Of a stretch of 30,038 nt of DNA, positions 14,086 through 29,126 are shown in pieces. Position numbers and translations under genes: made by a program. Location of the stretch: IMG/VR virus record IMGVR_UViG_3300033077_000655. The stretch is one strand, 5' to 3'. The notes beneath the pieces were generated by a model that saw nothing but the letters and a program-made list of their open reading frames with translations, was not told the origin of the DNA and did no database searches. Source of the stretch: a virus. Lineage: Duplodnaviria > Heunggongvirae > Uroviricota > Caudoviricetes. Each line of letters starts with the position of its first letter. The first letter of the stretch is position 1.

Positions 14086-14088
14086 CGA

Positions 14089-14094
14089 TAAATA
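14089..14094 (+). promoter_or_regulatory. TAAATA late-promoter-like box for the giant protein
   Basis: In a 13-nt intergenic gap, 4 nt before ATG 14099. Confidence 0.6.
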
Positions 14095-14098
14095 AGGC

Positions 14099-17000
14099 AT
14101 GAACTTTCATGACCTTGACAACTACAATCTCGCAGATGCTGTAAAATTCCATCAACGTCTAAACCCCCGTTTGTGGGGTAGAGACGAGCACTTGTTGCCC
14201 GAGGTGCGTGACAAGTTGTTGGCAATAGCAGCAGATTTCCAAGAATTCCTGGGTGTGGATGATCTCAACACCCGGGACATTACCATATCAGGTAGCAATG
14301 CTGCCTATAGCTATACTCCCCATTCTGATATTGATCTACACCTTGTGGTAGACATGCCCGACGATCCTGTGTATCAGGAATTGTTTGCAGCCAAGAAATT
14401 TCAGTATAACCAAGAACATGATATAAAGATTGCCGGAGTTCCGGTGGAACTGTATGTACAGCCTAGTGATCAAAAGCATGTGAGTCAAGGCATTTACAGC
14501 GTGAAGAATGGTGACTGGACACAAGTTCCGCAACGTCGTCGTGCTAGTGTAGATGACTCATGTGTACAGCACAAAACAGCTGATCTTGATGCTAGAATAC
14601 ATTCGGCCATCAAATCAGGTGATGCTGATGCTGTGAATCAGCTGTGGGACAAGATCAAAAACATGCGGCAAACTGGCCTGGAAAAGAATGGCGAATTTGG
14701 TTGCGAGAACATCACATTCAAACTGTTGAGAAATATGGGTTGTATTGGTCAATTAAAAGATGCCAAGACAGCAATACAAGATCGTGAATTAAGTCTAGCA
14801 CGTAAACCGGCGCCCAGAAAGAAGATGAATTATGGCATGCGTGATTACTGGTATCCAGGCACTGCGTATGCTGGCCAAGATCATCCTGCCGGCACTGAAT
14901 CAGAACAAGTGGATGAAAGTGCAGATCCTGATCACTTGAAAAAGATACTGCATCGTTTCTACGCCAGTTGCGTGGATAAGTTGCAGTTAAAGAATCCACC
15001 ACGTTTGCAATTAGAAACAACCACTGACTGGAGTCAAGAGAATGGTAGTTTTGGACAATATGACTCTGACAGCAACACCTTGATCCTGGCCACTTCTGGC
15101 CGTCATGTGCTGGATATACTTCGCACCATGGCACATGAGATGACACATCGCCAGCAGGATGAGCGCAATCCCCTGCCTATAGATGCTGGAGAAACAGGTA
15201 GTCCTTGGGAAGATCAAGCCAACGCCATGGCTGGTCGTATCATGAGAGATTGGGCACAAGAGCAGCCCGATATGTTCGATGGTGTCACACTGGAAGAAGC
15301 GTCAGGCTACATCCCCACAAAGAAGCAGGCTCGAGATCCAAGATTCGTCATGGCCCTGACCCGAGATGTGCGCCCAGGTGCTGTGGGCAAGGAAGCCAAT
15401 AAACTGGGATTACAAACAGATAGCCAAGGCCATCCTGCCCTGCTCACAGCAGGGTTGAACCGACTGTTGCGTGAGTTCAAAGAGCAGGACCTGTTTGAAA
15501 TCAACATGGGTGGCAAGAACCTGCGCAAAGAAGCAGCCAAGACAGGTGCCCTAGCCGGCATGGAGTTTGAGATGATTGTGCCCGACACTTCGTCCGAGGA
15601 TCAAGAACTAGAGCCTGACTTTGACATGGATGAATCAGCCAGCAGTGCCAGCGATATTCGAGACTTTTTCTATGATGGGGACTACAACAGTCGCAGAAGT
15701 ACCCAGGACATGATTGACCAGATAATGGATGATTACAGTAACTGGCAAGTGGAACAGTTTGATACACGTTGGGACCTGGATGCAGAAGAATTTATCTTTC
15801 AGTATATCAAAGACAATATAGATGATGACGACGTCAGACAGATGTTGGATCTGGAAGAGGAAGACCCCATTGGCCGCCAGGAATATCTACTGGTCGCGGA
15901 CATGATTGCTACTGAACAAATGGAACCCTGGTACGAAGATGCCAAGAATGATGCCAGCGATAGTTTCTACGAAGATGACCGTTTTGAAGACTTTCTTCAG
16001 GATAACAACATGGAGCACATGAGTGATATCTATCATCGTTACGATGGCATAATCCATTGGCCACACTACACCAGCGGTGGCGGCGACACCAGCGTTGAAG
16101 ATGTAGCAGATTCATTCAGTGCTGCTGTGGGTCGTCCTGCACAAGCAAGAAGTGATTATCATGCGTATGGTCAAGAGCGTCCAGGTCCTGGCAAGAACTT
16201 TTATGTGGTAGAGCCCGATGGCAGTTTACAGCCTGACGACACCAACGATTCAGGCTTGGAGTTTGTGAGCCCACCCTTGCCCATAGATGACATCATGTCA
16301 GACTTGAAAAAGGTCAAGGCCTGGGCAGACAAAACAGGTTGCTACACCAATGATTCTACTGGCCTGCACATCAACATCTCAGTGCCCAACTATAGCCAGG
16401 ACCAATTGGATTATGTAAAGTTGGCCTTGCTCATGGGCGATGAATATGTGTTGAATAACTTTGGGCGTGCCGGTAACACTTATGCAAAATCTGCAATGGG
16501 CAAGATCAAAGGCAAAGTAACTCCAGAGAATGCCAAACAAATCCTAGATAAAATGAAGTCAGGCCTGGATCAATTGGCTACCAAAGCCATTCATTCAGGT
16601 TACACAGACAAATACACATCAATCAACACCAAGGATGGACACATTGAGTTTCGCAGCCCTGGTGGGGATTGGTTGGATGATAACTTTGACAAGATTGAAA
16701 ACACGCTGATGAGATTCACCGTGGCCATGAGTGCTGCGCTAAATCCCGAAGCGTATAGACAAGAGTATCTCAAGAAGCTGTACAAGATGTTGGCACCCAA
16801 GGGTGAGAATGATCCGCTGGCCATCTTTGCAAAGTATTCAGCCGGTGAGTTGCCTAAGGCTGCACTCAAGAGTTTTGTACGTCAAGCACAGTTAGAGCGT
16901 GGTAACAAAGCAGCCAAGCAAGCTGAACTGGATGTCATGCAAAAAGAACTTACTCCAGCACCTGAAGAATCTAACCAAGGTAACTGGGGTATTTGGCTTG

Positions 17001-20000
17001 GGGCAGCGAATCAATTTTCACGTATGCCCGGGGAATATCCTGCAGGTCAATCTGATACTTTGCGTAGATTCCCCAGCCAGGAAGCTGCCGAACAATTCCT
17101 AGCTCAGACTCGTGCAAGCATTCCAAGAATGCGAACAGATGCGGAAGTTCGTGAAATCCAACCAGCAACTGCACCAGCAGCTATGCAACCTGGTCAATAC
17201 CAATGGCAAATAACCGATGACAATGATCAAGTGGTGTATAGTTTTGTATCATCTACTGCTCAGCGAGATGCCAACGACGTTGCAAGAAACTGGATACAAT
17301 CACAACCACCTTCTATTAGAGCTCGTGGTCCGTTTAATGTGTGGCTGGCACGCTTGGGCGGGCAAGTTCCAGGCAGCACGGTAGATCTACAACGTCAACG
17401 CCAACGAGATGCAGCATCAGCAGCAGCCAGCATGGCAGCAGATGCAGCACCGTCAGCACGTCAGCTGCAACAGATGGCTATGAGCAACGTCACGAATCCT
17501 CCATATTATCCACCACCTACTCCAATTCCTGGTGTGCAAGATATTGATATAGATATCCCTATGGCACAAACACAGTGGGAAGTATACAATAGATCGTCCA
17601 ATCAACCAATATTTGTAATGCAGGCAGCAAATCAAGCAGAAGCATGGCGCAAAGGTCAAGAATGGGTTGCTGCTGCGCAGCAGGCAGATCCAACAGTGGA
17701 TGCTAGTAACTTCTCTGTAAGACCAAGTTCTCAACCAGTTGCTGAAAGTATCACTGTGCTAGAACAACGTCTACGTCAAGAACTAGATGCCTTGGGCAAT
17801 CAAGCACCAACTGGTCCCGAGTCTCCTCCCAAAATGCCTGCAGGCACAATCAAAGTGGATGTGAGTGACATGTACGACTGGTACAAACTGGGGCAACACA
17901 TATCCAATCTCAAAGGCGTGGACAAGAGAACACTAGGAACAGGACCCCCTAGCACTGTTTTTGCGTTTGGTTCTGAAGAGCTGGAAAACAAATACAGTCA
18001 CGAACTCATGAACCTAGGCTTGAAAACACATGACCTAGACGAGCCTGGTGAAGAAGATGTAGATGAAAGCCAAGAAATTACTAAACTTGGTAAACTAGAT
18101 TCAGTTCTAGAACGATGCATTAGCATGATATATCGTGGTCAAGAAACCAATCCTGAAAAGTATGGGCGTGTGGCTGCTTGTTTGATCGATGACAAAAACA
18201 ATCACACCTATGCTATCAACTTGCCCGGACCCAATGGAACACGCCGCCATGCTGAACGTGTGGCCATCGATACACATTTAAAACGCCATGGACGTATTGG
18301 TTCCAATGCCATTATGGTCACCACATTGAGTCCTTGTGTGAATCACATGGCCGAGCGAGATGGTGAAAGCTGCACTGAGTTGTTGAGTGATTATGGTATT
18401 GAGAAATGCTATGCTGGGTGGCAAGACCCCACACAGCAGCCTGCAACAGCATATCCATTCAATTTGCAGGTCACTGATAATGCAGACATTTTTAACACTT
18501 GTCAAAACATAGCAGCCAGTTTCCTACCACAAAACATGACCAACAATTTAGATGAAGCAATCAATCCAGATTGTTTTGATCCAGCATTCAATGACACGCA
18601 AATCTTTGACGGGTTGACTTATCGTGCCACAGTGGAAGAAGAATACGGCAAGCCAGTGCTCACAATCAAGGTTCTTGATGACAACTTTCAGCAAGTGGGT
18701 CTTTCCAAATTCAAACAAAGCAAAAAAGGTGTGGTATCGTTGATCACCAGCTTTCGCCCTGAATATCAAGGGCAAGGTATTGCACGTAACATCTATGCGT
18801 ATGTTAGAATGTTAGGCAACACCATTGTTCCGAGTAAAAATCAGTTGCCACCGGGCAAGGCCATGTGGGCAGCCTGGAAGAAGTCTGGCGATGCCAAACA
18901 TCTAATGAAAGATGTAGCCGAAGCAATCAATCCAGATGTACTTGACCCTAGATTTAATCATAAACAAAAGATTGGTGACTACACATACATCGCAGGATTA
19001 GAACCAGATGAATGGGCGGATGAAGATTTGTTTGTTATCAGATGTTATGACGGTGAGAAGATGATTGGGCAGGCTAGATTCTACACAACATTTGGTGATT
19101 CATTAGTGAGCGCACTGACTACTGTAGAGCCTGAATATCAAAAACAAGGTATTGCAAGTACAATGTATGCGTATGCTAGAATGTTAGGTAATACAATAGA
19201 ACCAAGTGCTTCACAGTTGCCATCTGGTAAAAAAATGTGGAAAGCATGGAAGAAGTCCGGTGATGCCAAACACCTGATGAAAGATGTAGCAGAAGAAGAG
19301 GAACCAACAAGAATCAAGATCAACAATAACGATGCCGCACGAGCATTCATTCAACGAGTTTATGCTCGGTATCCACACACCATGCAGAACAATCATGTGA
19401 TGGTGTGGGGGTCCGGTGACGATCAACAGTTTGCCATGTTTGAATTAATTCCTAGCTTTAGCAAGCGTGGTGCAGTTGAAGTTAAATGGATTCAAGCATA
19501 TCCCTTACGCCAAGGAGTTGGCACACGTGCCATGAAAGAACTACAAGCCATGGCCAGAGAAGATGGCATCAGCTTGACATTGTTTCCCTGGGACAAAGGA
19601 CAAGTGAGTCAGAGCAAACTGACCAAGTTCTATCGTGGACAAGGATTTAAGCCTACTGTTAAAGGTGGTAAAGCAATGCAGTGGGAGCCTATATCTGAAC
19701 GCAAACAATATCCACTAGAAGATTTTGAAGGATTAAAATTCAGAATAGTTGCCGACAGCGGTCAACTGTTTGTGAATGCTCTTGATTCAACCGGAAACAA
19801 TGAGCTAGGCCATGTTACATTCAATATTGACGATAGTAATGGCGTGGATCCACAGGACTTGTTTATCAAAGACAAATTTCGAGGTCAAGGTATTGCCAAA
19901 ATAATGTATGATTTTGTCAAAAGCAAAGGTTACAAAATACAACGAAGTTGGGATCAAACCGATGCAGGTGCAGGTTTTTGGAACAAGCACAAAGGCGACG

Positions 20001-20377
20001 ATGTCCGTGTGTGGGAACAAAAAAATGTAGCCGAAGCAAGGCCTGAGCATCCTACCCATGAGTTTGAAACTGCGTACCATATTACCAGTACTGAAAATGC
20101 AGAAGAAATTCTATATGCTGGTCTAGATCCGTATGATGGCAAAGCATTCATGGTAGTAAACGAAGGTGATAAGGTCAAGCTACAAAGAGAACTAAGTACG
20201 GTTGGTAATTGGATGTACGCCAAGACAGAAGGCAGCGATGATCCATTGACATTGTTGCAAATTGATGTGTCAGGTATTCCATTAACATACGAACACGGAT
20301 GGTACTTTTCCACAACCAAAATCTCTCCTGATCGCATAACGGATTTGGGTGTAAAAGAACTAGCAAGGTATGTATAA
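14099..20377 (+). CDS. 2092-aa polyvalent protein: Pol-beta-type nucleotidyltransferase, HExxH metallopeptidase, amidoligase, Zn-deaminase, four GNATs, ART-like domain
   Basis: GSNAAYSYTPHSDIDLH (~14291); AHEMTH (15134-15148); GMEFE/GLEFVSP/STGLHIN/HIEFRS (~15557-16657); HAE...SPC...C (18248-~18372); four R/QxxGxG/A motifs (18554-~20030); AYHIT...ILYAGL (~20070). Confidence 0.85.
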   Translation: MNFHDLDNYNLADAVKFHQRLNPRLWGRDEHLLPEVRDKLLAIAADFQEFLGVDDLNTRDITISGSNAAYSYTPHSDIDLHLVVDMPDDPVYQELFAAKKFQYNQEHDIKIAGVPVELYVQPSDQKHVSQGIYSVKNGDWTQVPQRRRASVDDSCVQHKTADLDARIHSAIKSGDADAVNQLWDKIKNMRQTGLEKNGEFGCENITFKLLRNMGCIGQLKDAKTAIQDRELSLARKPAPRKKMNYGMRDYWYPGTAYAGQDHPAGTESEQVDESADPDHLKKILHRFYASCVDKLQLKNPPRLQLETTTDWSQENGSFGQYDSDSNTLILATSGRHVLDILRTMAHEMTHRQQDERNPLPIDAGETGSPWEDQANAMAGRIMRDWAQEQPDMFDGVTLEEASGYIPTKKQARDPRFVMALTRDVRPGAVGKEANKLGLQTDSQGHPALLTAGLNRLLREFKEQDLFEINMGGKNLRKEAAKTGALAGMEFEMIVPDTSSEDQELEPDFDMDESASSASDIRDFFYDGDYNSRRSTQDMIDQIMDDYSNWQVEQFDTRWDLDAEEFIFQYIKDNIDDDDVRQMLDLEEEDPIGRQEYLLVADMIATEQMEPWYEDAKNDASDSFYEDDRFEDFLQDNNMEHMSDIYHRYDGIIHWPHYTSGGGDTSVEDVADSFSAAVGRPAQARSDYHAYGQERPGPGKNFYVVEPDGSLQPDDTNDSGLEFVSPPLPIDDIMSDLKKVKAWADKTGCYTNDSTGLHINISVPNYSQDQLDYVKLALLMGDEYVLNNFGRAGNTYAKSAMGKIKGKVTPENAKQILDKMKSGLDQLATKAIHSGYTDKYTSINTKDGHIEFRSPGGDWLDDNFDKIENTLMRFTVAMSAALNPEAYRQEYLKKLYKMLAPKGENDPLAIFAKYSAGELPKAALKSFVRQAQLERGNKAAKQAELDVMQKELTPAPEESNQGNWGIWLGAANQFSRMPGEYPAGQSDTLRRFPSQEAAEQFLAQTRASIPRMRTDAEVREIQPATAPAAMQPGQYQWQITDDNDQVVYSFVSSTAQRDANDVARNWIQSQPPSIRARGPFNVWLARLGGQVPGSTVDLQRQRQRDAASAAASMAADAAPSARQLQQMAMSNVTNPPYYPPPTPIPGVQDIDIDIPMAQTQWEVYNRSSNQPIFVMQAANQAEAWRKGQEWVAAAQQADPTVDASNFSVRPSSQPVAESITVLEQRLRQELDALGNQAPTGPESPPKMPAGTIKVDVSDMYDWYKLGQHISNLKGVDKRTLGTGPPSTVFAFGSEELENKYSHELMNLGLKTHDLDEPGEEDVDESQEITKLGKLDSVLERCISMIYRGQETNPEKYGRVAACLIDDKNNHTYAINLPGPNGTRRHAERVAIDTHLKRHGRIGSNAIMVTTLSPCVNHMAERDGESCTELLSDYGIEKCYAGWQDPTQQPATAYPFNLQVTDNADIFNTCQNIAASFLPQNMTNNLDEAINPDCFDPAFNDTQIFDGLTYRATVEEEYGKPVLTIKVLDDNFQQVGLSKFKQSKKGVVSLITSFRPEYQGQGIARNIYAYVRMLGNTIVPSKNQLPPGKAMWAAWKKSGDAKHLMKDVAEAINPDVLDPRFNHKQKIGDYTYIAGLEPDEWADEDLFVIRCYDGEKMIGQARFYTTFGDSLVSALTTVEPEYQKQGIASTMYAYARMLGNTIEPSASQLPSGKKMWKAWKKSGDAKHLMKDVAEEEEPTRIKINNNDAARAFIQRVYARYPHTMQNNHVMVWGSGDDQQFAMFELIPSFSKRGAVEVKWIQAYPLRQGVGTRAMKELQAMAREDGISLTLFPWDKGQVSQSKLTKFYRGQGFKPTVKGGKAMQWEPISERKQYPLEDFEGLKFRIVADSGQLFVNALDSTGNNELGHVTFNIDDSNGVDPQDLFIKDKFRGQGIAKIMYDFVKSKGYKIQRSWDQTDAGAGFWNKHKGDDVRVWEQKNVAEARPEHPTHEFETAYHITSTENAEEILYAGLDPYDGKAFMVVNEGDKVKLQRELSTVGNWMYAKTEGSDDPLTLLQIDVSGIPLTYEHGWYFSTTKISPDRITDLGVKELARYV
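18554..19291 (+). repeat. Tandem intragenic duplication of a ~122-124-aa GNAT module
   Basis: Both units begin GAAGCAATCAATCCAGA (18554, 18920) and end WKKSGDAKHLMKDVAE; both contain YAY.RMLGNTI.PS..QLP.GK.MW. Confidence 0.85.
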
Positions 20378-21171
20378 TGAGAGCAAATGAATTTGAAGGC
20401 ATTGAAAAACTTCCAGCCGGTGAATATCGTGGTGGAAAAAGTTCATTATTTGTACCTACAAAATTTAAACCTGATTCTATACAGAAGTTGCCGGGCGGCA
20501 GCGGATTTGTATATACTATAGGGCCTGGGCAGTATGGTACAAATATAGAAATTTGGGATCCTAAGGGATCGGACTATATTAATGCAATAACACCGCCGGT
20601 TAGAAAACCTCGAGAGTCTGATGGTGCTTTTAAAGAACGAGTTCAATGGTGGGAATATGCCACTAGACGAGCATTAAATGCTCCAGGCCAATTGATTGGT
20701 AAACTTTCAATTACACCCGCAGATACAAGGATAGGCCAATTTCCGTTAGCCAATGCAGTGAGAGTTGATACTATCACAGTAGACGAGGATTATCGTGGCC
20801 GGGGCATTGCTAAAGCATTATACGGTATTGTATTAACTATTATGCAAGTGCCATTGGTAGCCGGCAATACGCAAACTCCTGGTGGACGTAGAAATTGGGT
20901 TAGCCTTGCTAGTATACCCGGCGTTGAGATAAAAGGGTATGTTGGGTTAGAAACTTATGATCTAAATTCTCGTAATATTGATACAGTCATGGGTCAATTG
21001 GGTGGTGAACATCTTGGCCGAGCCAAAGATGGAGACGCGTTTTTTACATTTGATGTACAACCTAGCACAACTGGACAAGAATTAGAAGCTTATGTCAAAA
21101 CTTATTTGCGTAAAATATACGGCAAAGGCCAATACAATTCTGGCCTGTATGCAACCTGGAGTGGCACATGA
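20377..21171 (+). CDS. GNAT acetyltransferase-domain protein with N-terminal MRANEF tag
   Basis: VDTITVDEDYRGRGIAKALY (motif A) and GNTQTPGGRRNW; TAATG coupling. Confidence 0.75.
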   Translation: MRANEFEGIEKLPAGEYRGGKSSLFVPTKFKPDSIQKLPGGSGFVYTIGPGQYGTNIEIWDPKGSDYINAITPPVRKPRESDGAFKERVQWWEYATRRALNAPGQLIGKLSITPADTRIGQFPLANAVRVDTITVDEDYRGRGIAKALYGIVLTIMQVPLVAGNTQTPGGRRNWVSLASIPGVEIKGYVGLETYDLNSRNIDTVMGQLGGEHLGRAKDGDAFFTFDVQPSTTGQELEAYVKTYLRKIYGKGQYNSGLYATWSGT

Positions 21172-22082
21172 GAGCAACGGAATTCTTAATTGAAAGAGCA
21201 ACTGATATATTGTTTCATTACACTGGTATCAGAGCCGGATTGAAGATACTGCAATCAGGTAACTTTGAACTGGCCAGCGTGACTGGTACCCGCAGTGAAG
21301 AACAATACGCACCGCCAGGCTATCCGTACTTTCTCAGTCTAACACGAACCATAACTGGTGACTATCATCGCTGGGTGGGATCAGGTGCTGTGATGTTCAA
21401 ACTCAATGGTGACTGGTTTAACTCTCGCTATATTGTAAAACCCATTGACTATTGGGAACGTGCATGGTTGCACAGCAATGGCACAAGAACAAGAGAATCA
21501 GAAGATCGTGTGTTCAGCAAAGACCCTACTATCCCAATCACTCCTGTGACTGAAGTTCATGTGTTGCTGAAAGAACAAAATGAATATCGCAGTCCAGAAA
21601 CACGACAGATTTTAATCACAGCCAAACAGCAAGGCTTGCCTGTGTTTTTTTACACAGACGAAGCTGCATGGCGATTGTTGGACAAGCGCAAGGCACAGAA
21701 ACCTGCACAAGCTCGTGAAGTGCTGCGTGGTCCGCAACCTGCTGGAAATTCTCGCAAGTCCACAGACTATGTGAAGCCTTGGATAGAGTTGATTACCAAG
21801 AACGACGAAGCACATCTAAGTGAACGAGCCAAACGTGCATTAAGGACCATGCGGTACTATGGTAATGCGTACGAGGATCAAAATCTCAGTGTGGATCTCA
21901 GCAATGCTCGCAAGCCGGATTCCGGAGACCGTGCCAGTGCAGTTTGGATAATTAAGTACATGCAGGACAATAATTTTAAATCCACACTGGAATTGAAGAA
22001 TGCCATCTCAGACAAATGGGAAGCCATCTACAAAGCCAAGCAACCGGTTGCAAAACCTGTAACACCGGGTGAACCTGTATGA
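21168..22082 (+). CDS. Putative ADP-ribosyltransferase-fold protein with MRATEFLIE tag
   Basis: LFHYT...LKIL, FLSLTR and RESEDR follow the H/R...S...ExE order of ART folds (inference). Confidence 0.5.
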   Translation: MRATEFLIERATDILFHYTGIRAGLKILQSGNFELASVTGTRSEEQYAPPGYPYFLSLTRTITGDYHRWVGSGAVMFKLNGDWFNSRYIVKPIDYWERAWLHSNGTRTRESEDRVFSKDPTIPITPVTEVHVLLKEQNEYRSPETRQILITAKQQGLPVFFYTDEAAWRLLDKRKAQKPAQAREVLRGPQPAGNSRKSTDYVKPWIELITKNDEAHLSERAKRALRTMRYYGNAYEDQNLSVDLSNARKPDSGDRASAVWIIKYMQDNNFKSTLELKNAISDKWEAIYKAKQPVAKPVTPGEPV

Positions 22083-22273
22083 GAGCCGCAGAATTTGTAA
22101 TCGATGAAAACTTTGCTGACGGTCGGAATCCCCAAGACAAGGGCGATAGCAAGCGGCATGGCATTCCAAAACATACCACATTGTCACAGTTAGATAAGAT
22201 AGGCCATGGATCGGGGCGTAAAGCACAGTTAGCCAGATGGCAGGCGAATATGAGACGAGGTCGTGCTAAATAA
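22079..22273 (+). CDS. Small basic protein with MRAAEFVIDE tag
   Basis: ATGA coupling; R/K-rich after the tag. Confidence 0.75.
   Translation: MRAAEFVIDENFADGRNPQDKGDSKRHGIPKHTTLSQLDKIGHGSGRKAQLARWQANMRRGRAK
22267..22272 (+). promoter_or_regulatory. TAAATA late-promoter-like box for the homing endonuclease
   Basis: Overlaps the last codon and stop of the upstream gene; 8 nt before ATG 22281. Confidence 0.55.
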
Positions 22274-22280
22274 TGCTATC

Positions 22281-22856
22281 ATGGCACAAGTTTACCTCAT
22301 CACAAATACTTTGAACAACAAACAATACATCGGTGTAACTAATAATTCATTACAAGAGAGATGGAAAAGCCATTTGTATGATAACAATGTTATCAGCAAA
22401 GCAATCAAAAAATATGGCAAGGAACATTTTTCTATAGAAGCAATACACGAGTGCGACACAATGGATGAAGCATACCTCCTTGAACCCAAATTCATCATTG
22501 AGCATAATACCAAATACCCAAACGGATACAATGTATCATCGGGTGGCAAAGGATCTCAAGTTGGCAAAAGAAAACCAACCCCTGAACATGTCAAACAGAA
22601 AATAAGAGAATCTATAAAGAAAAATCATTATTGGAATAACTTATCTGAGGAACAAAAAGAGAAATGTAGAGAAAGTTGGAGAGCAAACAATCAATCTCGC
22701 ATAGGACAAAAACGCGGTTCGTATAATAGTGGATTGTTCAAAAAAACTGTGTGGATCAACAACGGCAAACAAAGAAAAAGAGTTCCTGAGTCCAACATAA
22801 ACGATTGGGTATCAAACGGCTGGATGCGCGGGCACAAGAACGGAATCTCAAAATGA
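22281..22856 (+). mobile_element. Free-standing GIY-YIG homing endonuclease gene (Seg-like) with a NUMOD-type basic C-terminus
   Basis: VYLITN...QYIGVT, ERW..H, LLEPKFI, GYN...GG, KRKPTPEHVKQKIRES (NUMOD3-like), VWINNGK...GWMRG. Start set to ATG 22281. Confidence 0.85.
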
Positions 22857-23386
22857 AACTTTTAGAATTCAGTCCTCTCACACTTCACGGTAGTTTTGAA
22901 CGTGGACTGATCTTGAACAAACTGTGGCTGATCCACGAACTTCAAAAGATTCAAGATCAGTTCAGCACAATTTACATCCTGGGTGCATGGTACGGAAACA
23001 TGAGCATACTGTTGTCCAAGAGTGGAATTGAATACAATCACATTGTGAATGTAGATCAAGATGTCAGTGTAAACCGTGAGTCAAAGCGCATAGGCCGCAT
23101 GTTGAATATTGATAACATTGAATATATGGCCAAGGACGCTAATCGTTTGAACTATCAGCAACTGGATAAAGATGGACTAGTAATCAATACCAGCTGTCAT
23201 GACATGGAAAATCGCGGCTGGTTTGATCACATACCTGCAGGAGTCATGGTAGCACTGCAAAGCAGAGATGATGTGGATGATGATCTCGACAATTATGATC
23301 TCGGGCAAACACTTTATCAAGGATCAAGATCAGCTCGAGATCCCGAAACACACTATCAAAGTCTATTACGCATTGGGGTTAAATAA
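22853..23386 (+). CDS. Putative class I SAM-dependent methyltransferase-fold protein (MKLLEF start)
   Basis: Start re-assigned to ATG 22853 (ATGA overlap). IYILGAWYG motif I, VNVDQD motif II, VINTSC. Confidence 0.55.
   Translation: MKLLEFSPLTLHGSFERGLILNKLWLIHELQKIQDQFSTIYILGAWYGNMSILLSKSGIEYNHIVNVDQDVSVNRESKRIGRMLNIDNIEYMAKDANRLNYQQLDKDGLVINTSCHDMENRGWFDHIPAGVMVALQSRDDVDDDLDNYDLGQTLYQGSRSARDPETHYQSLLRIGVK
23380..23385 (+). promoter_or_regulatory. TAAATA late-promoter-like box
   Basis: 5 nt before ATG 23391; overlaps the upstream stop. Confidence 0.6.
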
Positions 23387-23390
23387 GCAT

Positions 23391-23819
23391 ATGAGAAACT
23401 TTATCAGACTTGTTGAAGCAATGGAAAAAGGTTGCCCGGTGGCCACACATGACATTGAACTCAATCTCAAGAATCGTCAAGCAGCCATTGACAATTATCA
23501 CTATGGTCCAGCAAATCCGTTAGAGCCAGGTGACTATTGGAAAAAGGCTGCTGACCGTTGGGCTGTGCCAGAAAAAATAGTCAAGACCATGAAATGTGGC
23601 AACTGTGCTGCGTTTGATGCCAGTGATTCAATGCGAAAGTGTATTGAGTCCGGAATCCGAGGTGATGAATCACATGCAGATGCTGCTGCCACAATAAATC
23701 TCAGTGACCTGGGCTACTGTAACTTCTTGCACTTCAAATGTGCCGGTACCAGGACCTGTGCGGCCTGGGTAGTGGGTGGACCTATTACTGAAAAAGATCG
23801 CGGAAAGAAGGTGATGTAA
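23391..23819 (+). CDS. Cys-rich hypothetical protein (MRNFIRLVE start)
   Basis: Start re-assigned to ATG 23391 after the TAAATA box. CGNC...C...GYC...HFKC...TC pattern. Confidence 0.75.
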   Translation: MRNFIRLVEAMEKGCPVATHDIELNLKNRQAAIDNYHYGPANPLEPGDYWKKAADRWAVPEKIVKTMKCGNCAAFDASDSMRKCIESGIRGDESHADAAATINLSDLGYCNFLHFKCAGTRTCAAWVVGGPITEKDRGKKVM

Positions 23820-24521
23820 ATGAAATCAAGTGAATTCATAACAGAACACCAGCAGCAGTTGGAAGAAAATCTACACCAGTGGTTCAAAGACAAATGGGTG
23901 AGATTTGGGCCCGACGGTAAGATTCGCGGTGACTGTGCTCGTGGAAGTGAATCTGAAGGCAAGCCCAAGTGTTTGCCACAGGCCAAGGCTCATGCACTGG
24001 GCAAGAAAGGGCGGGCGTCAGCAGCAGCAAGAAAGCGCAGACAGGATCCCGATGCTGATCGACGCGGTTCTGCCATCAATGTGGCCACTAAGAAAAAAAC
24101 AAACGAACAACGTTGTCCGCATTGTGGTGGCCCACTGATGGAATACGATGATCTGATGGAAAAGAAAGATGCCTGCTACTACAAAGTCAAGGCTAGTGCA
24201 AAAGTATGGCCTAGTGCTTATGCATCGGGGCGGTTGGTTCAGTGTCGTAAAAAAGGTGCAGGCAACTATGGCAACAAGTCAGAAAGTGCTGTGACTGAGT
24301 CCAACACATTATCGCCAGGTGCTGTGAGAAAGATACAACAGGTGCTGAACAAAAAATACAATGCCAATCTAGATGTGGATGGTGTGCTAGGCACCCTTAC
24401 TCGCCAATCTATTGAAAAATACATGCCATCAGCACATCAACAACCGGCGCCAGATTCCGATCGCACTACTCGTGTGCAAGGATTCAATGCCAAAGACAAT
24501 GATCACAGAAAGGTGAACTAA
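23820..24521 (+). CDS. Modular basic protein with MKSSEFITE tag and a C-terminal peptidoglycan-binding-like motif
   Basis: Basic Cys-containing modules separated by E-containing linkers; VRKIQQVL...LDVDGVLGTLTRQSI resembles PG_binding_1. Confidence 0.75.
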   Translation: MKSSEFITEHQQQLEENLHQWFKDKWVRFGPDGKIRGDCARGSESEGKPKCLPQAKAHALGKKGRASAAARKRRQDPDADRRGSAINVATKKKTNEQRCPHCGGPLMEYDDLMEKKDACYYKVKASAKVWPSAYASGRLVQCRKKGAGNYGNKSESAVTESNTLSPGAVRKIQQVLNKKYNANLDVDGVLGTLTRQSIEKYMPSAHQQPAPDSDRTTRVQGFNAKDNDHRKVN

Positions 24522-25316
24522 ATGAAATCAAGTGAATTTATAACTGAAAGCATGCGACGCTTGGAAGAAAAGTGGAGTCAAAAATACAAAAGCAGTATCA
24601 ACTGCTCTCATCCAAAAGGCTTTAGTCAACGTGCTCATTGTGCCGGTAAAAAGAAACACAACGAATCAGTTGAGATGGAAATGGTGTGTGAAATGTGTGG
24701 CATGTGTGAAACACACGGCAACATCATGGAAATCAAGACAGGTGCCACGGACTCAAATGGTGTGACCAAATGCTGGCCGAACAAACATGCAGAAGGCACA
24801 AAGAAGTCAGCTGTAACTGGCAAGCAGGTAAGAAACTGTGTGCCCAATGAAAGCATCGACGAAGCAGGATCACCGGCACAACAAGCAGCCATTGCTATTG
24901 CTATGAAAAAAGCCGGCAAGAAACCCAAAAGTTTAGACGAACAGTTTGACATGATTGAAGAAATGGTCGAACAACTGGCTGAAGCACATGGTGTTGATTC
25001 AGAACAAATTTGGGAAGATTTTGAAGCTGTGGATGATCATGAACTGTTGGAAACAGCAGCGTGGCGACGAAGTGCAGGCAAGAGCAAAAAAGGCGGGCTC
25101 AATGCCAAAGGTGTGGCCAGTTACCGGAGAGAGAATCCCGGCTCAAAATTACAGATGGCTGTGACCACCAAGCCCTCAAAACTCAAGCCTGGATCAAAAG
25201 CAGCCAAGCGTCGTAAAAGTTTCTGTGCCAGGATGGGAGGAGTCAAGGGCCCAATGAAGAAGCCCAATGGCAAACCCACACGCAAGGCATTAGCGTTGAG
25301 GAAATGGAACTGCTAA
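24522..25316 (+). CDS. Modular basic protein with MKSSEFITE tag
   Basis: Modules KWSQKYKSSINC..HC, CWP...NCVP, an acidic helix, and AAWRRSAGK...SFCARMGG...LRKWNC, separated by [ILV]-x-E linkers. Confidence 0.8.
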   Translation: MKSSEFITESMRRLEEKWSQKYKSSINCSHPKGFSQRAHCAGKKKHNESVEMEMVCEMCGMCETHGNIMEIKTGATDSNGVTKCWPNKHAEGTKKSAVTGKQVRNCVPNESIDEAGSPAQQAAIAIAMKKAGKKPKSLDEQFDMIEEMVEQLAEAHGVDSEQIWEDFEAVDDHELLETAAWRRSAGKSKKGGLNAKGVASYRRENPGSKLQMAVTTKPSKLKPGSKAAKRRKSFCARMGGVKGPMKKPNGKPTRKALALRKWNC

Positions 25317-25519
25317 TGAGAGCACAAGAATTCTTAACTGAAGAATTACTTACAGGATTCCATGTGTATGGTGCGTCCGTGCGTGTTAAAAATCCTTCGT
25401 ATACCACCAGTATAGATGTGGCCATATTTGCCAAGTCACCGGCTATGGCTCGATTGTTGCTGCAAGCTCAATACGGCAAAGACAGCATAGTTACCAATGT
25501 ACATAGGATAGACGAATGA
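25316..25519 (+). CDS. Small protein with MRAQEFLTEE tag
   Basis: Start re-assigned to ATG 25316 (TAATG coupling). Confidence 0.7.
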   Translation: MRAQEFLTEELLTGFHVYGASVRVKNPSYTTSIDVAIFAKSPAMARLLLQAQYGKDSIVTNVHRIDE

Positions 25520-25995
25520 GAGCCACTGAATTCATCGCTGAACTAAAGATAGACAACCGACAAGGGCTGGGGGCGGTGCCACACAATGCTGATGTGCATT
25601 ACTTTGGTCTAAACGTAGTAATGCGTCCCAGCATGTTCTTAAAGTTGAGTTTGCCTTTGGACAAGAACTCACCAGACGAACAAAAAACTATACAGCAATT
25701 GAAACAACAGATCAATGATCCTGGGTTTGGTGCGCCGTTCTTAACTGTAGTAGTGCCCGAAGCTTGGGAAAACAATGACTTTGGTCTAGAAGCCAAGGTG
25801 CGTGGTCATGACGGACGTCACAGAATGTATGCTATCATAGACGAGGAAGGTGACGATCCTGTGGAGGTTCATATTTTCATATCACACTTTCGTCGCAGAG
25901 ACATCACAGATGGTATCATCAAGAATCTACGCAATGGCATATTGAGTCAAAATGGACAGTATGTAAGTGGTCCTATATTTGGGGATGCCAAATGA
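25516..25995 (+). CDS. ParB/Sulfiredoxin-like domain protein with MRATEFIAE tag
   Basis: PFLTV...VRGHDGRHRMYAI resembles the ParB/Srx DGxHR motif. Confidence 0.55.
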   Translation: MRATEFIAELKIDNRQGLGAVPHNADVHYFGLNVVMRPSMFLKLSLPLDKNSPDEQKTIQQLKQQINDPGFGAPFLTVVVPEAWENNDFGLEAKVRGHDGRHRMYAIIDEEGDDPVEVHIFISHFRRRDITDGIIKNLRNGILSQNGQYVSGPIFGDAK

Positions 25996-26195
25996 GAGCA
26001 AGAGAATTCACACGTAAGAAAAAACCTGAATCGCAAGAACTAGATGAACTTACGTTTTTAGGGTCGCCCTGCACCAAGGATTGTTCCGGCCACAGGGCTG
26101 GGTATTCGTGGTCAAAAGCCCGTGGTAATCGTACTGCAATGAGTCACAGCAACAGTTTTAACAATGGCGCAAGATTGGCGTCACAGGGCAAATAG
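25992..26195 (+). CDS. Small protein with MRAREF tag
   Basis: ATGA coupling; FLGSPCTKDCSGHRAGYSWS module after LDE. Confidence 0.7.
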   Translation: MRAREFTRKKKPESQELDELTFLGSPCTKDCSGHRAGYSWSKARGNRTAMSHSNSFNNGARLASQGK

Positions 26196-26197
26196 AA

Positions 26198-26203
26198 TAA
26201 ATA
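26198..26203 (+). promoter_or_regulatory. TAAATA late-promoter-like box
   Basis: Intergenic; followed by an AAAGGAA RBS and ATG 26234. Confidence 0.55.
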
Positions 26204-26233
26204 AAGCATAGATCATTCATAAAGGAACATCAC

Positions 26234-27088
26234 ATGAGATCAACAGAATTTATCCAAGAAGCAGGACCCGGCGCTCCAGGTTTTGCACAAACTCCTGCTC
26301 AACTAGCAGCACGAGCTGCACAAGGTGAAAAGAATGCACAAGGAATTAAAAATTTCTTTGCCGGAGCACCACAAACTGGTGCTGCCAGCAACATGGCCAA
26401 GGATCCAGCACAACAAGCTGGCCAAGGTTTACCGGCGCCAGTGAATTCGATGGACGACAGCGACGATTTTTATGCTAACCCATTTGTGGCACCAGCAGCA
26501 CCGGTACAGGTGGGCACAGGAGTAGCACCGCCATCACCGCCAGATGGTATAGGAGTAGCACCTCCCACTCAAACCTCCACACCGGTACCTAAGAAAACGT
26601 TTACACCAGATCCAGCTGGTGTGGCAATTGCACAGCAATTAAAGATGGATTCTAACGCAATTAAATTATTCCAAAGAAATCAAGGCTTGACTCCAGACGG
26701 ACGAATTGGTCCTCAAACAACAGCGGCATTGAAGGCAGCACAATTGAAACAAGGCAACGTAGCTGCCAACGACAAAGGTGGTGCAAGAGGTGGTGCTGCA
26801 TTTGCGGCCACAGATCCACGCAGAACTGATGCTGCGGGCGGCGGCCAAACTGGATATAATTCACCACCATTTGCAGCACCAGCTGGTATAGGAGTAGCGC
26901 CACCGGCAGGAGCACGTCCACCAGCTGGTATAGGAGTAGCGCCACCAGCACCACGTGGCGGGAACCTGCGCAACCCAAATGCCGAAAATTTATTATCCAC
27001 AACTGAATCTAAACAACGTAATAAGTTAACAAATTTTGAAGAAAGCGTGGATCGCATGCGTCGGTTGTCAAACATGTTAAAAGGGTAG
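26234..27088 (+). CDS. Pro/Ala/Gly-rich protein with a peptidoglycan-binding domain and MRSTEFIQE tag
   Basis: IKLFQRNQGLTPDGRIGPQTTAAL is the PG_binding_1 signature; four G[TI]GVAPP repeats. Confidence 0.75.
   Translation: MRSTEFIQEAGPGAPGFAQTPAQLAARAAQGEKNAQGIKNFFAGAPQTGAASNMAKDPAQQAGQGLPAPVNSMDDSDDFYANPFVAPAAPVQVGTGVAPPSPPDGIGVAPPTQTSTPVPKKTFTPDPAGVAIAQQLKMDSNAIKLFQRNQGLTPDGRIGPQTTAALKAAQLKQGNVAANDKGGARGGAAFAATDPRRTDAAGGGQTGYNSPPFAAPAGIGVAPPAGARPPAGIGVAPPAPRGGNLRNPNAENLLSTTESKQRNKLTNFEESVDRMRRLSNMLKG
26879..26946 (+). repeat. 26-nt exact direct repeat, period 42 nt (encodes PAGIGVAPP)
   Basis: CCAGCTGGTATAGGAGTAGCGCCACC at 26879 and 26921; degenerate copies at 26513 and 26546. Confidence 0.85.
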
Positions 27089-27089
27089 C

Positions 27090-27869
27090 ATGAAGTTATT
27101 TGAGTTCTTGTCAGAAGCCACCAGCTCAAGCAATATCTATACCGTGAAATCCGGGGATTCCTTGCCAAGCATAGCAACGGCCAATGACACAACTGTGGAT
27201 GGCATCATGTGGCAAAATCCGGAGTTTGCTAGTGCTAGCGATATTGTGTTAGGATCTCGGATACGGTTGCCTGACACTAATGTACCTGGAACAGGATCGG
27301 GTGCCAGAGCATCAACAGGCGCTGTGAAACCCACAACAGCAAGACCACGTTCGATGAAAACGGCAAATCCAGTAGCATCCGGACTGACCAAAGAACAAAT
27401 GGCATTGTTGAACATGATTGCTGCCAGAGAAAGTGGTGGCGATTATAATATCATAAACTACAAAGCTCAAAATCTGATTGATGCCGGAAGATTAAACACC
27501 TCCGGGGGGCCTGGAGAACATCCTTTTGCATATGGTTACAAGGTAGATGGTCAAGACGTACCAGGAAAAGAGAAATATACAGCAGCTGGTAGATATCAGA
27601 TGGTGTGGACTACTTGGAAAGAAGCTGCGGCACTAGCCGGCGTAGATCCAAAAGATTTTTCACCGGCCAATCAGGATCTAGCAGCATTGGCTCTAGCACA
27701 ACAATCTTACAAAAAGAAATTTGGAGGTGATTTGAATACAGTATTGACTGACCCTTCAAAGGCAAGCCAAGTAGTAGCTGGACTTACACCTTGGAGTGTA
27801 CAAGCCGGAGGCCCGGGCTTCACTCCTCAGAATTATACTGCTGCATTGTCGGCTACAAAAACAGCATAA
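27090..27869 (+). CDS. LysM plus lambda-lysozyme-like muramidase/transglycosylase with MKLFEFLSE tag
   Basis: YTVKSGDSLPSIA (LysM); LLNMIAARESGGDY, AAGRYQM...TW and DFSPANQDLAA (lambda R-like). Confidence 0.8.
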   Translation: MKLFEFLSEATSSSNIYTVKSGDSLPSIATANDTTVDGIMWQNPEFASASDIVLGSRIRLPDTNVPGTGSGARASTGAVKPTTARPRSMKTANPVASGLTKEQMALLNMIAARESGGDYNIINYKAQNLIDAGRLNTSGGPGEHPFAYGYKVDGQDVPGKEKYTAAGRYQMVWTTWKEAAALAGVDPKDFSPANQDLAALALAQQSYKKKFGGDLNTVLTDPSKASQVVAGLTPWSVQAGGPGFTPQNYTAALSATKTA

Positions 27870-27901
27870 CACACCAAATAAATTTTAGAAAATAAATTAT
27901 C

Positions 27902-28228
27902 ATGTCTGCAACAATAACTTGGACCGTAACCAAAATGAACTGCTACCCAACAGCAGAGGGACAACCCAACGTGGTGTTTGAAGTTTACTGGATTTGTAGT
28001 GGTGTGCAAGACACCTACAGCAACTATGTGGCTGCTGTGAGCGCCTGCAATATTCCTTTGTCAACTACGTCTTTTACACCTTACGCTGATCTAACACAAG
28101 CACAAGTGCTTGGCTGGATCTGGGCCAATGGTGTTGATCAGTCTGCTGTAGAACTACAAGTACAAGCCTTGATTGACGTACAAATCAATCCTCCAGTGGT
28201 AATACTTCCACTGCCCTGGGCAGCATAA
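27902..28228 (+). CDS. Hypothetical phage protein (no tag)
   Basis: 108-aa ORF after a short AT-rich gap; ITWTV...YW.C...FTPYADLT..QVLGWIW...LPW. Confidence 0.75.
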   Translation: MSATITWTVTKMNCYPTAEGQPNVVFEVYWICSGVQDTYSNYVAAVSACNIPLSTTSFTPYADLTQAQVLGWIWANGVDQSAVELQVQALIDVQINPPVVILPLPWAA

Positions 28229-28230
28229 TC

Positions 28231-28827: not shown

Positions 28828-29126
28828 CTTCACAATTTGTGTTGGTCAAAGCTGATGTTTCAATAAACTGGGACGGTGCGGCACCCAATTATAGATTGTA
28901 TGTGGGTGGTGAATTGTTTGCTGATCGTACATATATTTGGCAGGAACAGTATCTAGAAGAACTGATCCAAATTTATGCACCACCTGGAGATTATGAGCTG
29001 CATTGGGAATTGGTTCCGTCAACAGCAGGTGAAATAACTGTGACTAATGTACGAATTGATGATGGCCAAGTGGGATCACGTATAGTAAATAATTCAGTAT
29101 TAAGGATCGAACATGAAAGTACATGA
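28824..29126 (+). CDS. Hypothetical protein
   Basis: ATGA coupling; 100 aa. Confidence 0.7.
   Translation: MTSQFVLVKADVSINWDGAAPNYRLYVGGELFADRTYIWQEQYLEELIQIYAPPGDYELHWELVPSTAGEITVTNVRIDDGQVGSRIVNNSVLRIEHEST
29086..29091 (+). promoter_or_regulatory. Possible internal TAAATA box upstream of the 29113 gene
   Basis: Followed by an AAGGA RBS and ATG 29113. It lies inside a CDS, so it may be chance. Confidence 0.35.

What the first reader, a model, noticed from the sequence alone, without database searches (positions are those of the whole stretch)
14915..20035. Domain boundaries carry [ILV]-x-E motifs: a candidate protease-cleaved polyprotein
Seen: the inferred domain junctions each have an [ILV]-x-E motif (Glu codon position given): VDE 14915, TLEE 15293, LFE 15497, VAE 17744, VDE 18065, LDE 18554, VAE 18920, VAE 19292, ISE 19697, VAE 20033. 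The tandem-duplication breakpoints fall exactly on two of them (DEAINPD, AEAINPD). Known: T4 prohead protease gp21 cleaves after Glu in [IL]-x-E-like contexts. Inference: the giant ORF is packaged as one precursor and cut inside the head into about ten ejectable effectors, so new domains can be added as E-bounded cassettes. Caveat: the tripeptide is common by chance; the evidence is its coincidence with boundaries.
Basis: partly seen in the sequence, partly recalled or inferred. Interest (0 to 1): 0.8.

Follow-up and report, generated by a model that had tools for sequence, protein, structure and literature searches.

The report
Protease-cuttable enzyme chain, giant phage
A 2092-residue gene of an uncultured giant T4-like phage strings about eleven otherwise independent proteins together, each joint ending in the short motif that the T4-type head protease cuts, so it is probably a precursor that is cut into separate injected proteins, although neither cutting nor packaging has been measured.

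Summary
All ten Glu codons are in frame in one ORF (14099-20377, 2092 aa). One is a codon off: TLE is not the motif, LEE at residue 400 is. The tripeptide is not enriched overall (22 seen, 22.0 expected), but its position is far from random. Nine of 13 independently defined homology breakpoints carry a [VILM]-x-E Glu, against 1.7 expected. Across 120 relatives, Glu is the only enriched residue at the break (7.2x).

The strongest evidence lies outside the given coordinates. The genes just downstream start with a T4 capsid-targeting-like leader (MRATEFIAE versus T4 MKTYQEFIAE). The same cassettes occur as stand-alone leader-tagged genes and as internal modules of giant relatives. The leader's last Glu maps exactly onto the junction Glu in 14 of 15 alignments.

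Complete relatives of about 350 kb encode a gp21-type protease, a gp23-type capsid protein and a gp55-type late sigma factor.

Weak points: the giant has no N-terminal leader, this contig holds no protease (it is a fragment, about 36% complete), and nothing is measured.

Verdict: a new variant of the T4 internal-protein system. This scan has noted the same theme on neighbouring genes and in other genomes. I found no published description.

The parts
14088..14094 (+). ATAAATA box, like the T4 late promoter, 4 nt before the giant's ATG
   Evidence: Read directly. An nTAAATA box lies 4-10 nt before the ATG in all 20 relatives examined, although the flanks differ. In the complete relative G002 the box precedes the portal, baseplate wedge, head-decoration and gp55-like late-sigma genes. 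Its function as a promoter is inferred.
14099..14917 (+). Cassette 1, aa 1-273: nucleotidyltransferase domain (1-233) plus a 40-aa tail ending VDE
   Evidence: phrog_36119, E 7e-43. Pfam NTP_transf_2 scores 16.9 bits, below its cut-off. It is 38% identical to a stand-alone 265-aa protein of Maribacter phage Molly that ends at the position matching residue 233. The tail 230-276 has pLDDT<50. After the Glu, relatives carry at least four different cassettes.
14918..15298 (+). Cassette 2, aa 274-400: small HExxH zinc metallopeptidase, ending LEE
   Evidence: H346, E347 and H350 are invariant in 57 relatives. Pfam hits are weak and below cut-off: M30 and DUF6782. Foldseek gives weak matches to proabylysin 4jiu (prob 0.99, E 0.09) and to IrrE.
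15299..15499 (+). Segment 3, aa 401-467: near-invariant but predicted disordered peptide, with LRE at 459 and LFE at 467
   Evidence: Many columns are invariant, including L465, F466 and E467. Residues 396-469 have pLDDT<50. In a distant relative the next cassette starts a separate gene at this point, behind the leader MRALEFLNE.
15500..17746 (+). Cassette 4, aa 468-1216: glutamine-synthetase-like amidoligase (to about 940) plus three small domains in Q/A/P-rich linkers, ending VAE
   Evidence: Pfam Amidoligase_2 scores 28-32 bits against a cut-off of 22. Foldseek gives weak GS and YbdK matches. It is a stand-alone 607-aa leader-tagged gene in L025/L027. The inner borders at about 934-957 and 1065-1090 have no motif.
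17747..18067 (+). Cassette 5, aa 1217-1323: unknown function, acidic tail ending VDE
   Evidence: No Pfam match. 49 HSPs end at 1314-1332. Eight different continuations follow this Glu in relatives. P3 varies among V, I, M and L while P1 stays Glu in 68 of 75 relatives.
18068..18556 (+). Cassette 6, aa 1324-1486: zinc-dependent cytidine/deoxycytidylate-type deaminase, ending LDE
   Evidence: Pfam dCMP_cyt_deam_1 scores 36.3 bits against a cut-off of 25. Stand-alone homologues of 160-200 aa end right after the TFL helix and lack the phi-x-E tail. At least seven continuations follow the Glu in relatives.
18557..18922 (+). Cassette 7, aa 1487-1608: GNAT acetyltransferase copy 1, from AINPD to DVAE
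   Evidence: GNAT by its 53% end-to-end identity to copy 2; the Pfam best stretches lie in copies 2 and 4. AF2 gives pLDDT 80-90 for the domain and <50 for both linkers. In P0024 this cassette follows the 1323-type Glu directly.
18923..19294 (+). Cassette 8, aa 1609-1732: GNAT copy 2, the tandem duplicate
   Evidence: Pfam Acetyltransf_1 best stretch 1637-1693. After DVAE, relatives carry AINPD, EEEP, NFADG, EYTGP or the protein end.
19295..19699 (+). Cassette 9, aa 1733-1867: divergent GNAT-like module, ending ISE
   Evidence: GNAT hits are weak. It is a stand-alone 134-aa gene with the leader MRANEFLIEE in L008. That gene ends at KWDPK, with no ISE tail.
19700..20035 (+). Cassette 10, aa 1868-1979: GNAT, ending VAE
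   Evidence: Pfam Acetyltransf_7, E 7e-15, residues 1891-1963. AF2 pLDDT is 80-90.
20036..20377 (+). Cassette 11, aa 1980-2092, plus the stop codon: unknown function
   Evidence: Of 33 stand-alone homologues of 110-177 aa, 19 start with a full MRAxEF[VIL]xE leader and 13 with a shorter MRIxE leader. The mature part starts in the same register as residue 1980.
20377..29313 (+). Array of about 12 genes directly downstream whose products start with a T4 CTS-like leader
   Evidence: Leaders include MRATEFLIE (21168), MRAAEFVIDE (22079), MKSSEFITE (23820 and 24522), MRAQEFLTE (25316), MRATEFIAE (25516), MRSTEFIQE (26234) and MKLFEFLSE (27090). Looser forms start at 20377, 25992, 28231 and 29113. 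The T4 CTS is MKTYQEFIAE (PMC8442874). The giant's stop overlaps the next ATG, and the starts at 21168 and 22079 overlap the preceding stops.

Best explanation
The giant ORF is a head-to-tail chain of about eleven cargo cassettes of the T4 internal-protein kind. They comprise a nucleotidyltransferase, a small zinc peptidase, an amidoligase, a deaminase, four GNATs and three unknowns.

Each internal cassette carries a short added tail ending in hydrophobic-x-Glu. The next cassette starts exactly where a stand-alone version would start after its capsid-targeting leader is removed.

The most likely mechanism has four steps:
1. The gene is transcribed late, together with the leader-tagged genes downstream.
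2. The precursor is built into the prohead core.
3. The phage's gp21-type serine protease cuts after each exposed phi-x-Glu.
4. The separate enzymes are delivered with the DNA.

Shown here: the motif, its specificity and position, cassette exchange at the Glu, the equivalence with leader-tagged genes, and the presence of the T4-type protease, capsid and late-sigma genes in complete relatives. Inferred: late expression, packaging, cleavage and ejection.
For: - Position and specificity of the motif: 9 of 13 breakpoint clusters against 1.7 expected. Glu is 7.2x enriched at the break while all other P1 residues are 1.8x or less, and V/M/T/L/I are enriched at P3.
- Exposure: 9 of the 10 claimed sites lie in low-pLDDT linkers.
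- Same upstream cassette, many downstream cassettes, and the reverse, always joined at phi-x-E.
- The tail is junction-specific. Stand-alone versions end GRAK*, KWDPK*, AVV* and WTGK*. The internal versions add AKRKTNE, ISE, EEYSMDE and VNE..QDVAE. The Molly nucleotidyltransferase and the stand-alone deaminases also lack the tails.
- 62 distinct leader-tagged ORFs flank the giants in this contig, in G002 and in 31 loci. In 14 of 15 N-terminally anchored alignments (8 of 9 cassette types) the leader's last Glu falls on the giant's junction Glu.
- 32 of 33 stand-alone homologues of cassette 11 have a leader.
- The leader resembles the T4 CTS MKTYQEFIAE, and gp21 cuts after L/I-X-E.
- All four relatives that are at least 82% complete encode Peptidase_S77 above its cut-off, next to a scaffold and a gp23-type capsid gene. 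The protease is 35% identical to T4 gp21.
- Junction codons differ synonymously (GTG/GTT/GTA, GCT/GCC/GCA), so the constraint acts on the protein. At the joints P2 drifts while the P3 class and P1 Glu are kept.
- A late-promoter-like box is conserved before the gene, and the same box precedes structural genes. The gene is translationally coupled to leader-tagged genes.
- Relatives carry cell-wall-degrading cassettes (GH19, LysM, M23), which is typical of virion-delivered proteins.
Against: - The giant has no N-terminal CTS in any of 120 relatives. Its N-terminus is part of the nucleotidyltransferase fold, so the route into the prohead is unknown.
- No protease or structural gene lies on this contig. 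The contig is only about 36% of a genome.
- Six of the ten sites have Val at P3, whereas T4's published rule is L/I.
- Three domain borders lack the motif.
- Both AF2 models are of low overall confidence (pLDDT 57 and 64), so the linker test is weak on its own.
- The family-wide counts are not phylogenetically independent.
- The box lies so close to the ATG that it would imply a leaderless mRNA. That is unproven.
Confidence: 0.6

Rival explanations
1. The joints are cut, but not by the prohead protease inside the head. The embedded HExxH peptidase (aa 274-400), or another protease, releases the modules before packaging or after delivery. This is the mechanism proposed for polyvalent proteins.
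For: The zinc-binding HExxH is invariant in 57 relatives and sits in the conserved core. Iyer et al. 2017 propose autoprocessing by embedded metallopeptidases (PMC5512222). The giant lacks a CTS. An AAA+ protease-like gene lies 4 kb upstream.
Against: The same phi-x-E ends the CTS-like leaders of stand-alone genes that have no peptidase of their own. P3 hydrophobic with P1 Glu is the signature of gp21-type enzymes. The peptidase fold assignment rests on weak matches only.
Confidence: 0.12
2. The protein is not cut. The phi-x-E tails are flexible acidic linkers, and scars of how cassettes are fused in frame from leader-tagged genes. The chain works as one multi-enzyme protein, packaged or not.
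For: Nothing shows cleavage. The neighbouring 901-aa ORF (30433-33138) has 11 QGVAE joints with near-identical DNA, which fits recombination at the joint. The N4 virion RNA polymerase and ArdC are delivered uncut. Linkers are often acidic.
Against: In this ORF the joint codons are not conserved as DNA. Only the pattern is kept across unrelated tails (TNE, VAE, VDE, LEE, LFE, ISE, MDE, LSE, LPE), which points to selection on a recognition site. Asp, which is equally acidic, is not enriched at the break (0.3x; 0 of 13 clusters).
Confidence: 0.22
3. The coincidence of a common tripeptide with guessed domain borders is chance.
For: The total count equals expectation, 22 against 22.0.
Confidence: 0.01

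Closest known systems
Phage T4 internal proteins IPI, IPII, IPIII (and Alt): capsid-targeting sequence plus gp21 processing
   Same: The neighbouring genes have a leader of the same form (M-R/K-x-x-E-F-I/L/V-x-E against MKTYQEFIAE). The cut rule is the same, hydrophobic-x-Glu. The lineage has gp21-type protease, gp23-type capsid and gp55-type sigma genes. The cargo is diverse and fast-changing, with only the tag conserved.
   Different: T4 cargo proteins are single small proteins, each cut once behind its own leader. Here about eleven modules, mostly enzymes, are chained in one 2092-aa precursor without an N-terminal leader. Internal cut motifs take the place of leaders, and Val is frequent at P3.
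Polyvalent proteins of phages and conjugative elements (Iyer, Burroughs, Anand, de Souza, Aravind 2017; PMC5512222)
   Same: Many unrelated effector-type domains sit in one polypeptide. The architecture is highly variable. A metallopeptidase is embedded. Delivery with the DNA is predicted, and an analogy to viral polyproteins is drawn.
   Different: That paper proposes release by the embedded peptidases. It does not describe Glu-bounded cassettes, a link to CTS-tagged genes or prohead-protease sites. The word amidoligase does not occur in it.
Ejection and inner-body proteins of phiKZ and SPN3US, cut by gp175 and gp245
   Same: These are giant phages with a large mass of head-internal proteins. 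They are cut after Glu by a gp21-related protease, sometimes at several sites.
   Different: The motif there is S/A-X-E or A-X-E with a small P3 residue. In SPN3US all identified substrate cuts remove N-terminal propeptides, and neither paper passage I read mentions cuts that separate unrelated enzymes. The phage lineage is different and has no T4-type CTS.
Polyproteins of RNA viruses
   Same: One translation product is cut at short conserved sites into separate enzymes.
   Different: This is an analogy only. Here a structural maturation protease of a DNA phage would do the cutting, and the products are accessory cargo, not the replication machinery.

Membership tests
T4-type capsid-targeted internal proteins (CTS plus gp21 processing) | N-terminal capsid-targeting sequence of about 10 residues, like MKTYQEFIAE | tested here: not met
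   The giant starts MNFHDLDNYNLA, as do its relatives, and this stretch aligns with the interior of a stand-alone nucleotidyltransferase. The feature is met by about 12 genes directly downstream and by stand-alone versions of cassettes 4, 9 and 11.
T4-type capsid-targeted internal proteins (CTS plus gp21 processing) | Cleavage motif: hydrophobic (L/I)-x-Glu, cut after the Glu | tested here: met
   The motif is present at 10 of 10 claimed joints and is position-specific. Six sites have Val at P3. Cleavage itself was not tested.
T4-type capsid-targeted internal proteins (CTS plus gp21 processing) | The phage encodes a gp21-family (Peptidase_S77) prohead protease | tested here: inconclusive
   It is absent from this 125.6-kb fragment. 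It is present above the cut-off in 4 of 4 relatives that are at least 82% complete, and is 35% identical to T4 gp21.
T4-type capsid-targeted internal proteins (CTS plus gp21 processing) | The protein is present in the mature head and ejected | not testable with these tools
   There is no cultured relative in the phage collection.
Polyvalent proteins (Iyer et al. 2017) | 2-15 unrelated effector-type domains in one phage or plasmid protein, with variable architectures among relatives | tested here: met
   About 11 modules. 787 relatives carry varying cassettes, including GH19, LysM, M23, ParB, SET and NUDIX.
Polyvalent proteins (Iyer et al. 2017) | Embedded peptidase domain that could release the modules | tested here: inconclusive
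   The HExxH is invariant, but Pfam scores are below cut-off and the fold matches are weak.
Pfam domain families of single cassettes | Score above the curated cut-off | tested here: met
   Acetyltransf_7 55.6 against 27, Acetyltransf_1 48.2 against 20.7, dCMP_cyt_deam_1 36.3 against 25, Amidoligase_2 28.2 against 22. NTP_transf_2 (16.9 against 21) and the peptidase families are below cut-off.

The most novel reading that the evidence does not exclude
T4-related giant phages have two interchangeable ways of turning a protein into capsid cargo. One is a private N-terminal leader. The other is insertion behind a phi-x-Glu joint in a leaderless carrier polyprotein, whose conserved first 940 residues (nucleotidyltransferase, zinc peptidase, amidoligase) dock in the prohead by a route not yet described. 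That route might be the near-invariant but disordered peptide 401-467, which is itself bounded by two cut motifs. One maturation protease would then release a whole, rapidly reshuffled set of host-directed enzymes.
Probability: 0.35. Interest if true: 0.85.

Novelty: new variant of a known kind. Interest (0 to 1): 0.75.

Why it matters
If the cuts are real, this is a polyprotein strategy in a DNA phage. A structural protease would double as the releasing enzyme for a large arsenal of injected enzymes that can be swapped module by module.

It would explain how hundreds of uncultured freshwater-type giant phages vary their first-minute weaponry: 787 relatives between 1150 and 3661 aa.

It gives a simple sequence rule for predicting capsid cargo in metagenomes, namely a leader or a phi-x-E joint.

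It suggests a natural design for loading several proteins into T4-type capsids from one gene.

It also makes the targets of the packaged deaminase, amidoligase and acetyltransferases a defined question.

Tried and rejected
- Megablast of the ORF against phage records found no match. tblastn found single domains only and no fused form in any cultured phage.
- The exact T4 late promoter TATAAATA has 0 matches in the window. The looser nTAAATA box was then found.
- Peptidase_S77 and S78 are not on the window's contig. Because the contig is a fragment, this is not evidence of absence.
- My first breakpoint statistic, with loose HSP criteria, was too noisy: 1216 of 5176 contexts against 9.7% background. 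I replaced it with stricter criteria and P1/P3 scans.
- DNA microhomology at the joints is rejected for this ORF, because the codons differ.
- KDVAE-AINPD resembles a 2A skipping peptide, but there is no NPGP and the other joints lack NP, so I judged it chance.
- An intein or other self-splicing element is unlikely, because there is no conserved Cys, Ser or Thr at +1.
- Foldseek with the 1120-residue model gave only weak rows with E>0.01. The deaminase and the last cassette were poorly modelled.
- The alignment of capsid-protein N-termini with T4 gp23 is gapped over the T4 cut site. The candidate sites ILE and LKE are only consistent with the rule.


Full report
**What is there**

The window is the first 30 kb of a 125,567-base virus contig that CheckV rates about 36% complete. 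It is therefore a fragment of a phage of roughly 350 kb. The finding lies in one ORF, 14099..20377 (+), 2092 aa, kept as P0001.

Pfam and PHROGs give these domains:
- A nucleotidyltransferase-like domain, residues 11-233.
- A weak HExxH peptidase signal, about 316-388.
- Amidoligase_2, 664-779.
- A cytidine/dCMP-type deaminase, 1341-1439.
- Several GNAT domains.

The surroundings are an endolysin, a holin, an AAA+ protease-like gene and, further on, a family B DNA polymerase. There are no structural genes on the contig.

**Check of the observation**

All ten quoted positions are in-frame Glu codons. TLE at residue 399 does not fit the motif. LEE ending at residue 400 does, and that is where relatives break.

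The raw number of [ILV]xE is exactly what composition predicts, 22 against 22.0. Any signal must therefore lie in position, and it does.

I defined junctions without reference to the motif. A search of the large protein collection gave 787 relatives of 1150-3661 aa, with a conserved first 940 residues or so and very different C-terminal contents: GH19 chitinase-like, LysM, M23 peptidase, ParB, SET, NUDIX, GNAT and deaminase.

BLAST breakpoints of P0001 against the best 119 fall into 13 clusters.
- Nine clusters hold a [VILM]xE Glu, against 1.7 expected (0 of 100,000 random placements).
- The same test with eight other residues at P1 gives 0-2.

Across all 120 proteins, I kept breakpoints with a conserved upstream side and an unrelated downstream side. 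Of 1359 distinct contexts, 41% have the motif at the break, against 5.7% background.
- Glu is enriched 7.2x at P1. Every other residue is 1.8x or less, and Asp is 0.3x.
- With Glu fixed at P1, V, M, T, L and I are enriched at P3 by 3.8-9.9x.
- These contexts are related by descent, but the control residues share that dependence.

AlphaFold2 models of the two halves are of modest quality, with mean pLDDT 64 and 57. Nine of the ten claimed sites fall in pLDDT<50 inter-domain segments, as do 16 of all 26 [VILM]xE sites (35% of residues; P = 0.006).

The two GNAT copies align end to end, from AINPD to DVAE.

Three breakpoint zones (934-957, 1065-1090, 1238-1249) carry no motif. The amidoligase and the small domains after it seem to be one unit.

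**What the joints look like across relatives**

The same upstream tail is followed by many different cassettes:
- At least eight after the ...EEDVDE tail.
- At least seven after the deaminase tail ...PQAMAE.
- Four or five after the GNAT tail ...DVAE.

Conversely, one downstream cassette, starting NFADG, is preceded by DVAE, AMAE, IDE, VWE, LPE or LSE.

At the joints P2 drifts while the P3 class and the P1 Glu are kept. At 1323, for example, relatives have VDE, IDE, VSE, VTE, MDE, LDE or VAE. Non-junction sites such as 512, 587 and 1019 are not conserved as a motif.

The junction codons in P0001 differ synonymously. The constraint therefore acts on the peptide, not on a DNA repeat. This is unlike the neighbouring 901-aa ORF at 30433-33138, whose 11 QGVAE joints share nearly identical DNA.

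**The decisive context**

I scanned the contig for short N-terminal peptides ending in phi-x-E. The genes directly after the giant ORF start with MRATEFLIE, MRAAEFVIDE, MKSSEFITE (twice), MRAQEFLTE, MRATEFIAE, MRSTEFIQE and MKLFEFLSE, with looser forms at four more genes.

The T4 capsid-targeting sequence is MKTYQEFIAE. The T4 internal proteins are cut once next to this sequence, any protein fused to it is retained in the capsid (PMC8442874), and gp21 cuts after L/I-X-E (PMC9026906).

Sixty-two distinct ORFs with such a leader flank the giants in this contig, in the complete relative G002 and in 31 related loci. Twenty-two of them are homologous to cassettes inside giants. In 14 of 15 alignments anchored at the N-terminus (8 of 9 cassette types), the last Glu of the leader projects exactly onto a junction Glu of the giant.

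Examples:
- The window's own 64-aa gene at 22079, MRAAEFVIDE|NFADG..., against ...DVAE|NFADG... in P0007.
- The gene at 25516, MRATEFIAE|LKIDN..., against ...IVTE|LKINN... in P0051.
- P0001's own cassettes 4, 9 and 11 exist elsewhere as stand-alone leader-tagged genes.

Of 33 stand-alone homologues of cassette 11, 19 carry the full leader and 13 a shorter MRIxE form. All are in the same register as residue 1980.

The phi-x-E tail is junction-specific. Stand-alone versions end where the fold ends (GRAK*, KWDPK*, AVV*, WTGK*). Internal versions add AKRKTNE, ISE, EEYSMDE or VNE..QDVAE before the next cassette. The stand-alone nucleotidyltransferase of phage Molly and the stand-alone deaminases likewise lack the tails.

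**The lineage**

Four related virus records that are at least 82% complete (364, 347, 349 and 286 kb; two have terminal repeats) each encode the following:
- A Peptidase_S77 protease above the Pfam cut-off. It is 35% identical to T4 gp21 and has the GE.(N/D)HP and GVSSRG motifs.
- A scaffold-like gene and a gp23-type capsid gene next to it.

The capsid protein N-terminus keeps VILE and YLKE before the conserved core. This is consistent with an [IL]xE propeptide site, but the alignment with T4 is gapped there.

An nTAAATA box lies 4-10 nt before the giant's ATG in the window and in all 20 relatives examined. In G002 the box precedes the portal, baseplate-wedge, head-decoration and gp55-like late-sigma genes. 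This suggests late transcription. The short spacing would mean a nearly leaderless mRNA, which is unproven.

The giant's stop codon overlaps the start of the next gene, and the following two starts also overlap the preceding stops. This suggests co-expression with leader-tagged genes.

**Interpretation**

The best reading (0.6) is a cargo polyprotein. Internal-protein-like modules are chained through prohead-protease sites, built into the prohead, cut after each exposed phi-x-Glu and delivered with the DNA.

The main weakness is that the giant has no leader of its own. The conserved first 940 residues may serve as a carrier. Residues 401-467 are a candidate docking or pro-peptide, because they are near-invariant yet predicted disordered and are bounded by LEE and LFE. 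This is speculation.

Rivals:
- Cutting by the embedded HExxH peptidase, as proposed for polyvalent proteins (0.12).
- No cutting, with the tails as linkers or fusion scars (0.22).
- Chance (0.01).

**Comparison with what is known**

The system works like T4 IPI-III and Alt with gp21. It differs in being a leaderless multi-enzyme chain with internal sites.

It fits the general definition of polyvalent proteins (PMC5512222). That paper does not describe Glu-bounded cassettes, a link to CTS genes or prohead-protease release.

phiKZ and SPN3US cut after S/A-X-E or A-X-E. In SPN3US the identified substrate cuts all produce N-terminal propeptides.

Four full-text searches found no description of such a polyprotein. 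This library misses many subscription papers.

Earlier notes of this scan describe the leader array next door, the QGVAE protein on the same contig, and similar polyproteins in other genomes. I reached the leader array independently, before reading them.

**Verdict**

This is a new variant of a known kind. Interest is 0.75.

Noticed in passing
window 14088-14094; G002 genome-wide (L045-L062): An nTAAATA box has bimodal spacing to start codons: 3-7 nt with no Shine-Dalgarno, or 15-27 nt with AGGA. In G002, 58 of 142 boxes lie within 50 nt upstream of ORFs, many of them structural genes. This suggests T4-like late promoters, a subset of which gives leaderless mRNAs.
   Followed up: partly
window 15299-15499 (aa 401-467): A 67-residue stretch is almost invariant in 57 relatives yet has pLDDT<50. 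It is bounded by LEE and LFE cut motifs. Its role is unknown.
   Followed up: partly
G000:C1:30433-33138 (just beyond the window): A 901-aa ORF has 11 QGVAE joints encoded by nearly identical DNA (CAAGGTGTGGCGGA). It is a second, DNA-conserved type of joint in the same phage. L027 has a similar 700-aa ORF.
   Followed up: partly
window 22079-22273: A 64-aa basic mini-protein (leader, then NFADGRNPQDKGDSKRHG...) recurs as a cassette in 68 of the 120 giant family proteins retrieved. Its function is unknown.
   Followed up: partly
window 27090-27869 and relatives P0083-P0116: Cell-wall-directed modules occur among the leader-tagged genes and giant cassettes. The leader-tagged 27090 gene starts with a LysM-like stretch, and the giant relatives carry GH19, LysM and M23 cassettes. 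This fits muralytic cargo separate from the lysis endolysin at 5890-6510.
   Followed up: no
window 8195-10480: A 761-aa double-AAA+ protein matches phrog_4871, 'ATP-dependent protease', at E 1e-234. Its role is unknown. It is not a likely source of Glu-specific cuts.
   Followed up: no
G000:C1:110920-122991 (minus strand): A cluster of six radical-SAM-like genes plus a Nol-type carbamoyltransferase, possibly for DNA or metabolite modification.
   Followed up: no
window 18908-18934 and 18542-18568: KDVAE-AINPD and NNLDE-AINPD look superficially like eukaryotic 2A skipping peptides (D-V-E-x-N-P-G-P) but lack NPGP. I judged this chance.
   Followed up: partly
L043:2594-3403 (G002): An HNH-type endonuclease-like ORF sits directly after the major capsid gene, as homing endonucleases do in T4-like phages.
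   Followed up: no
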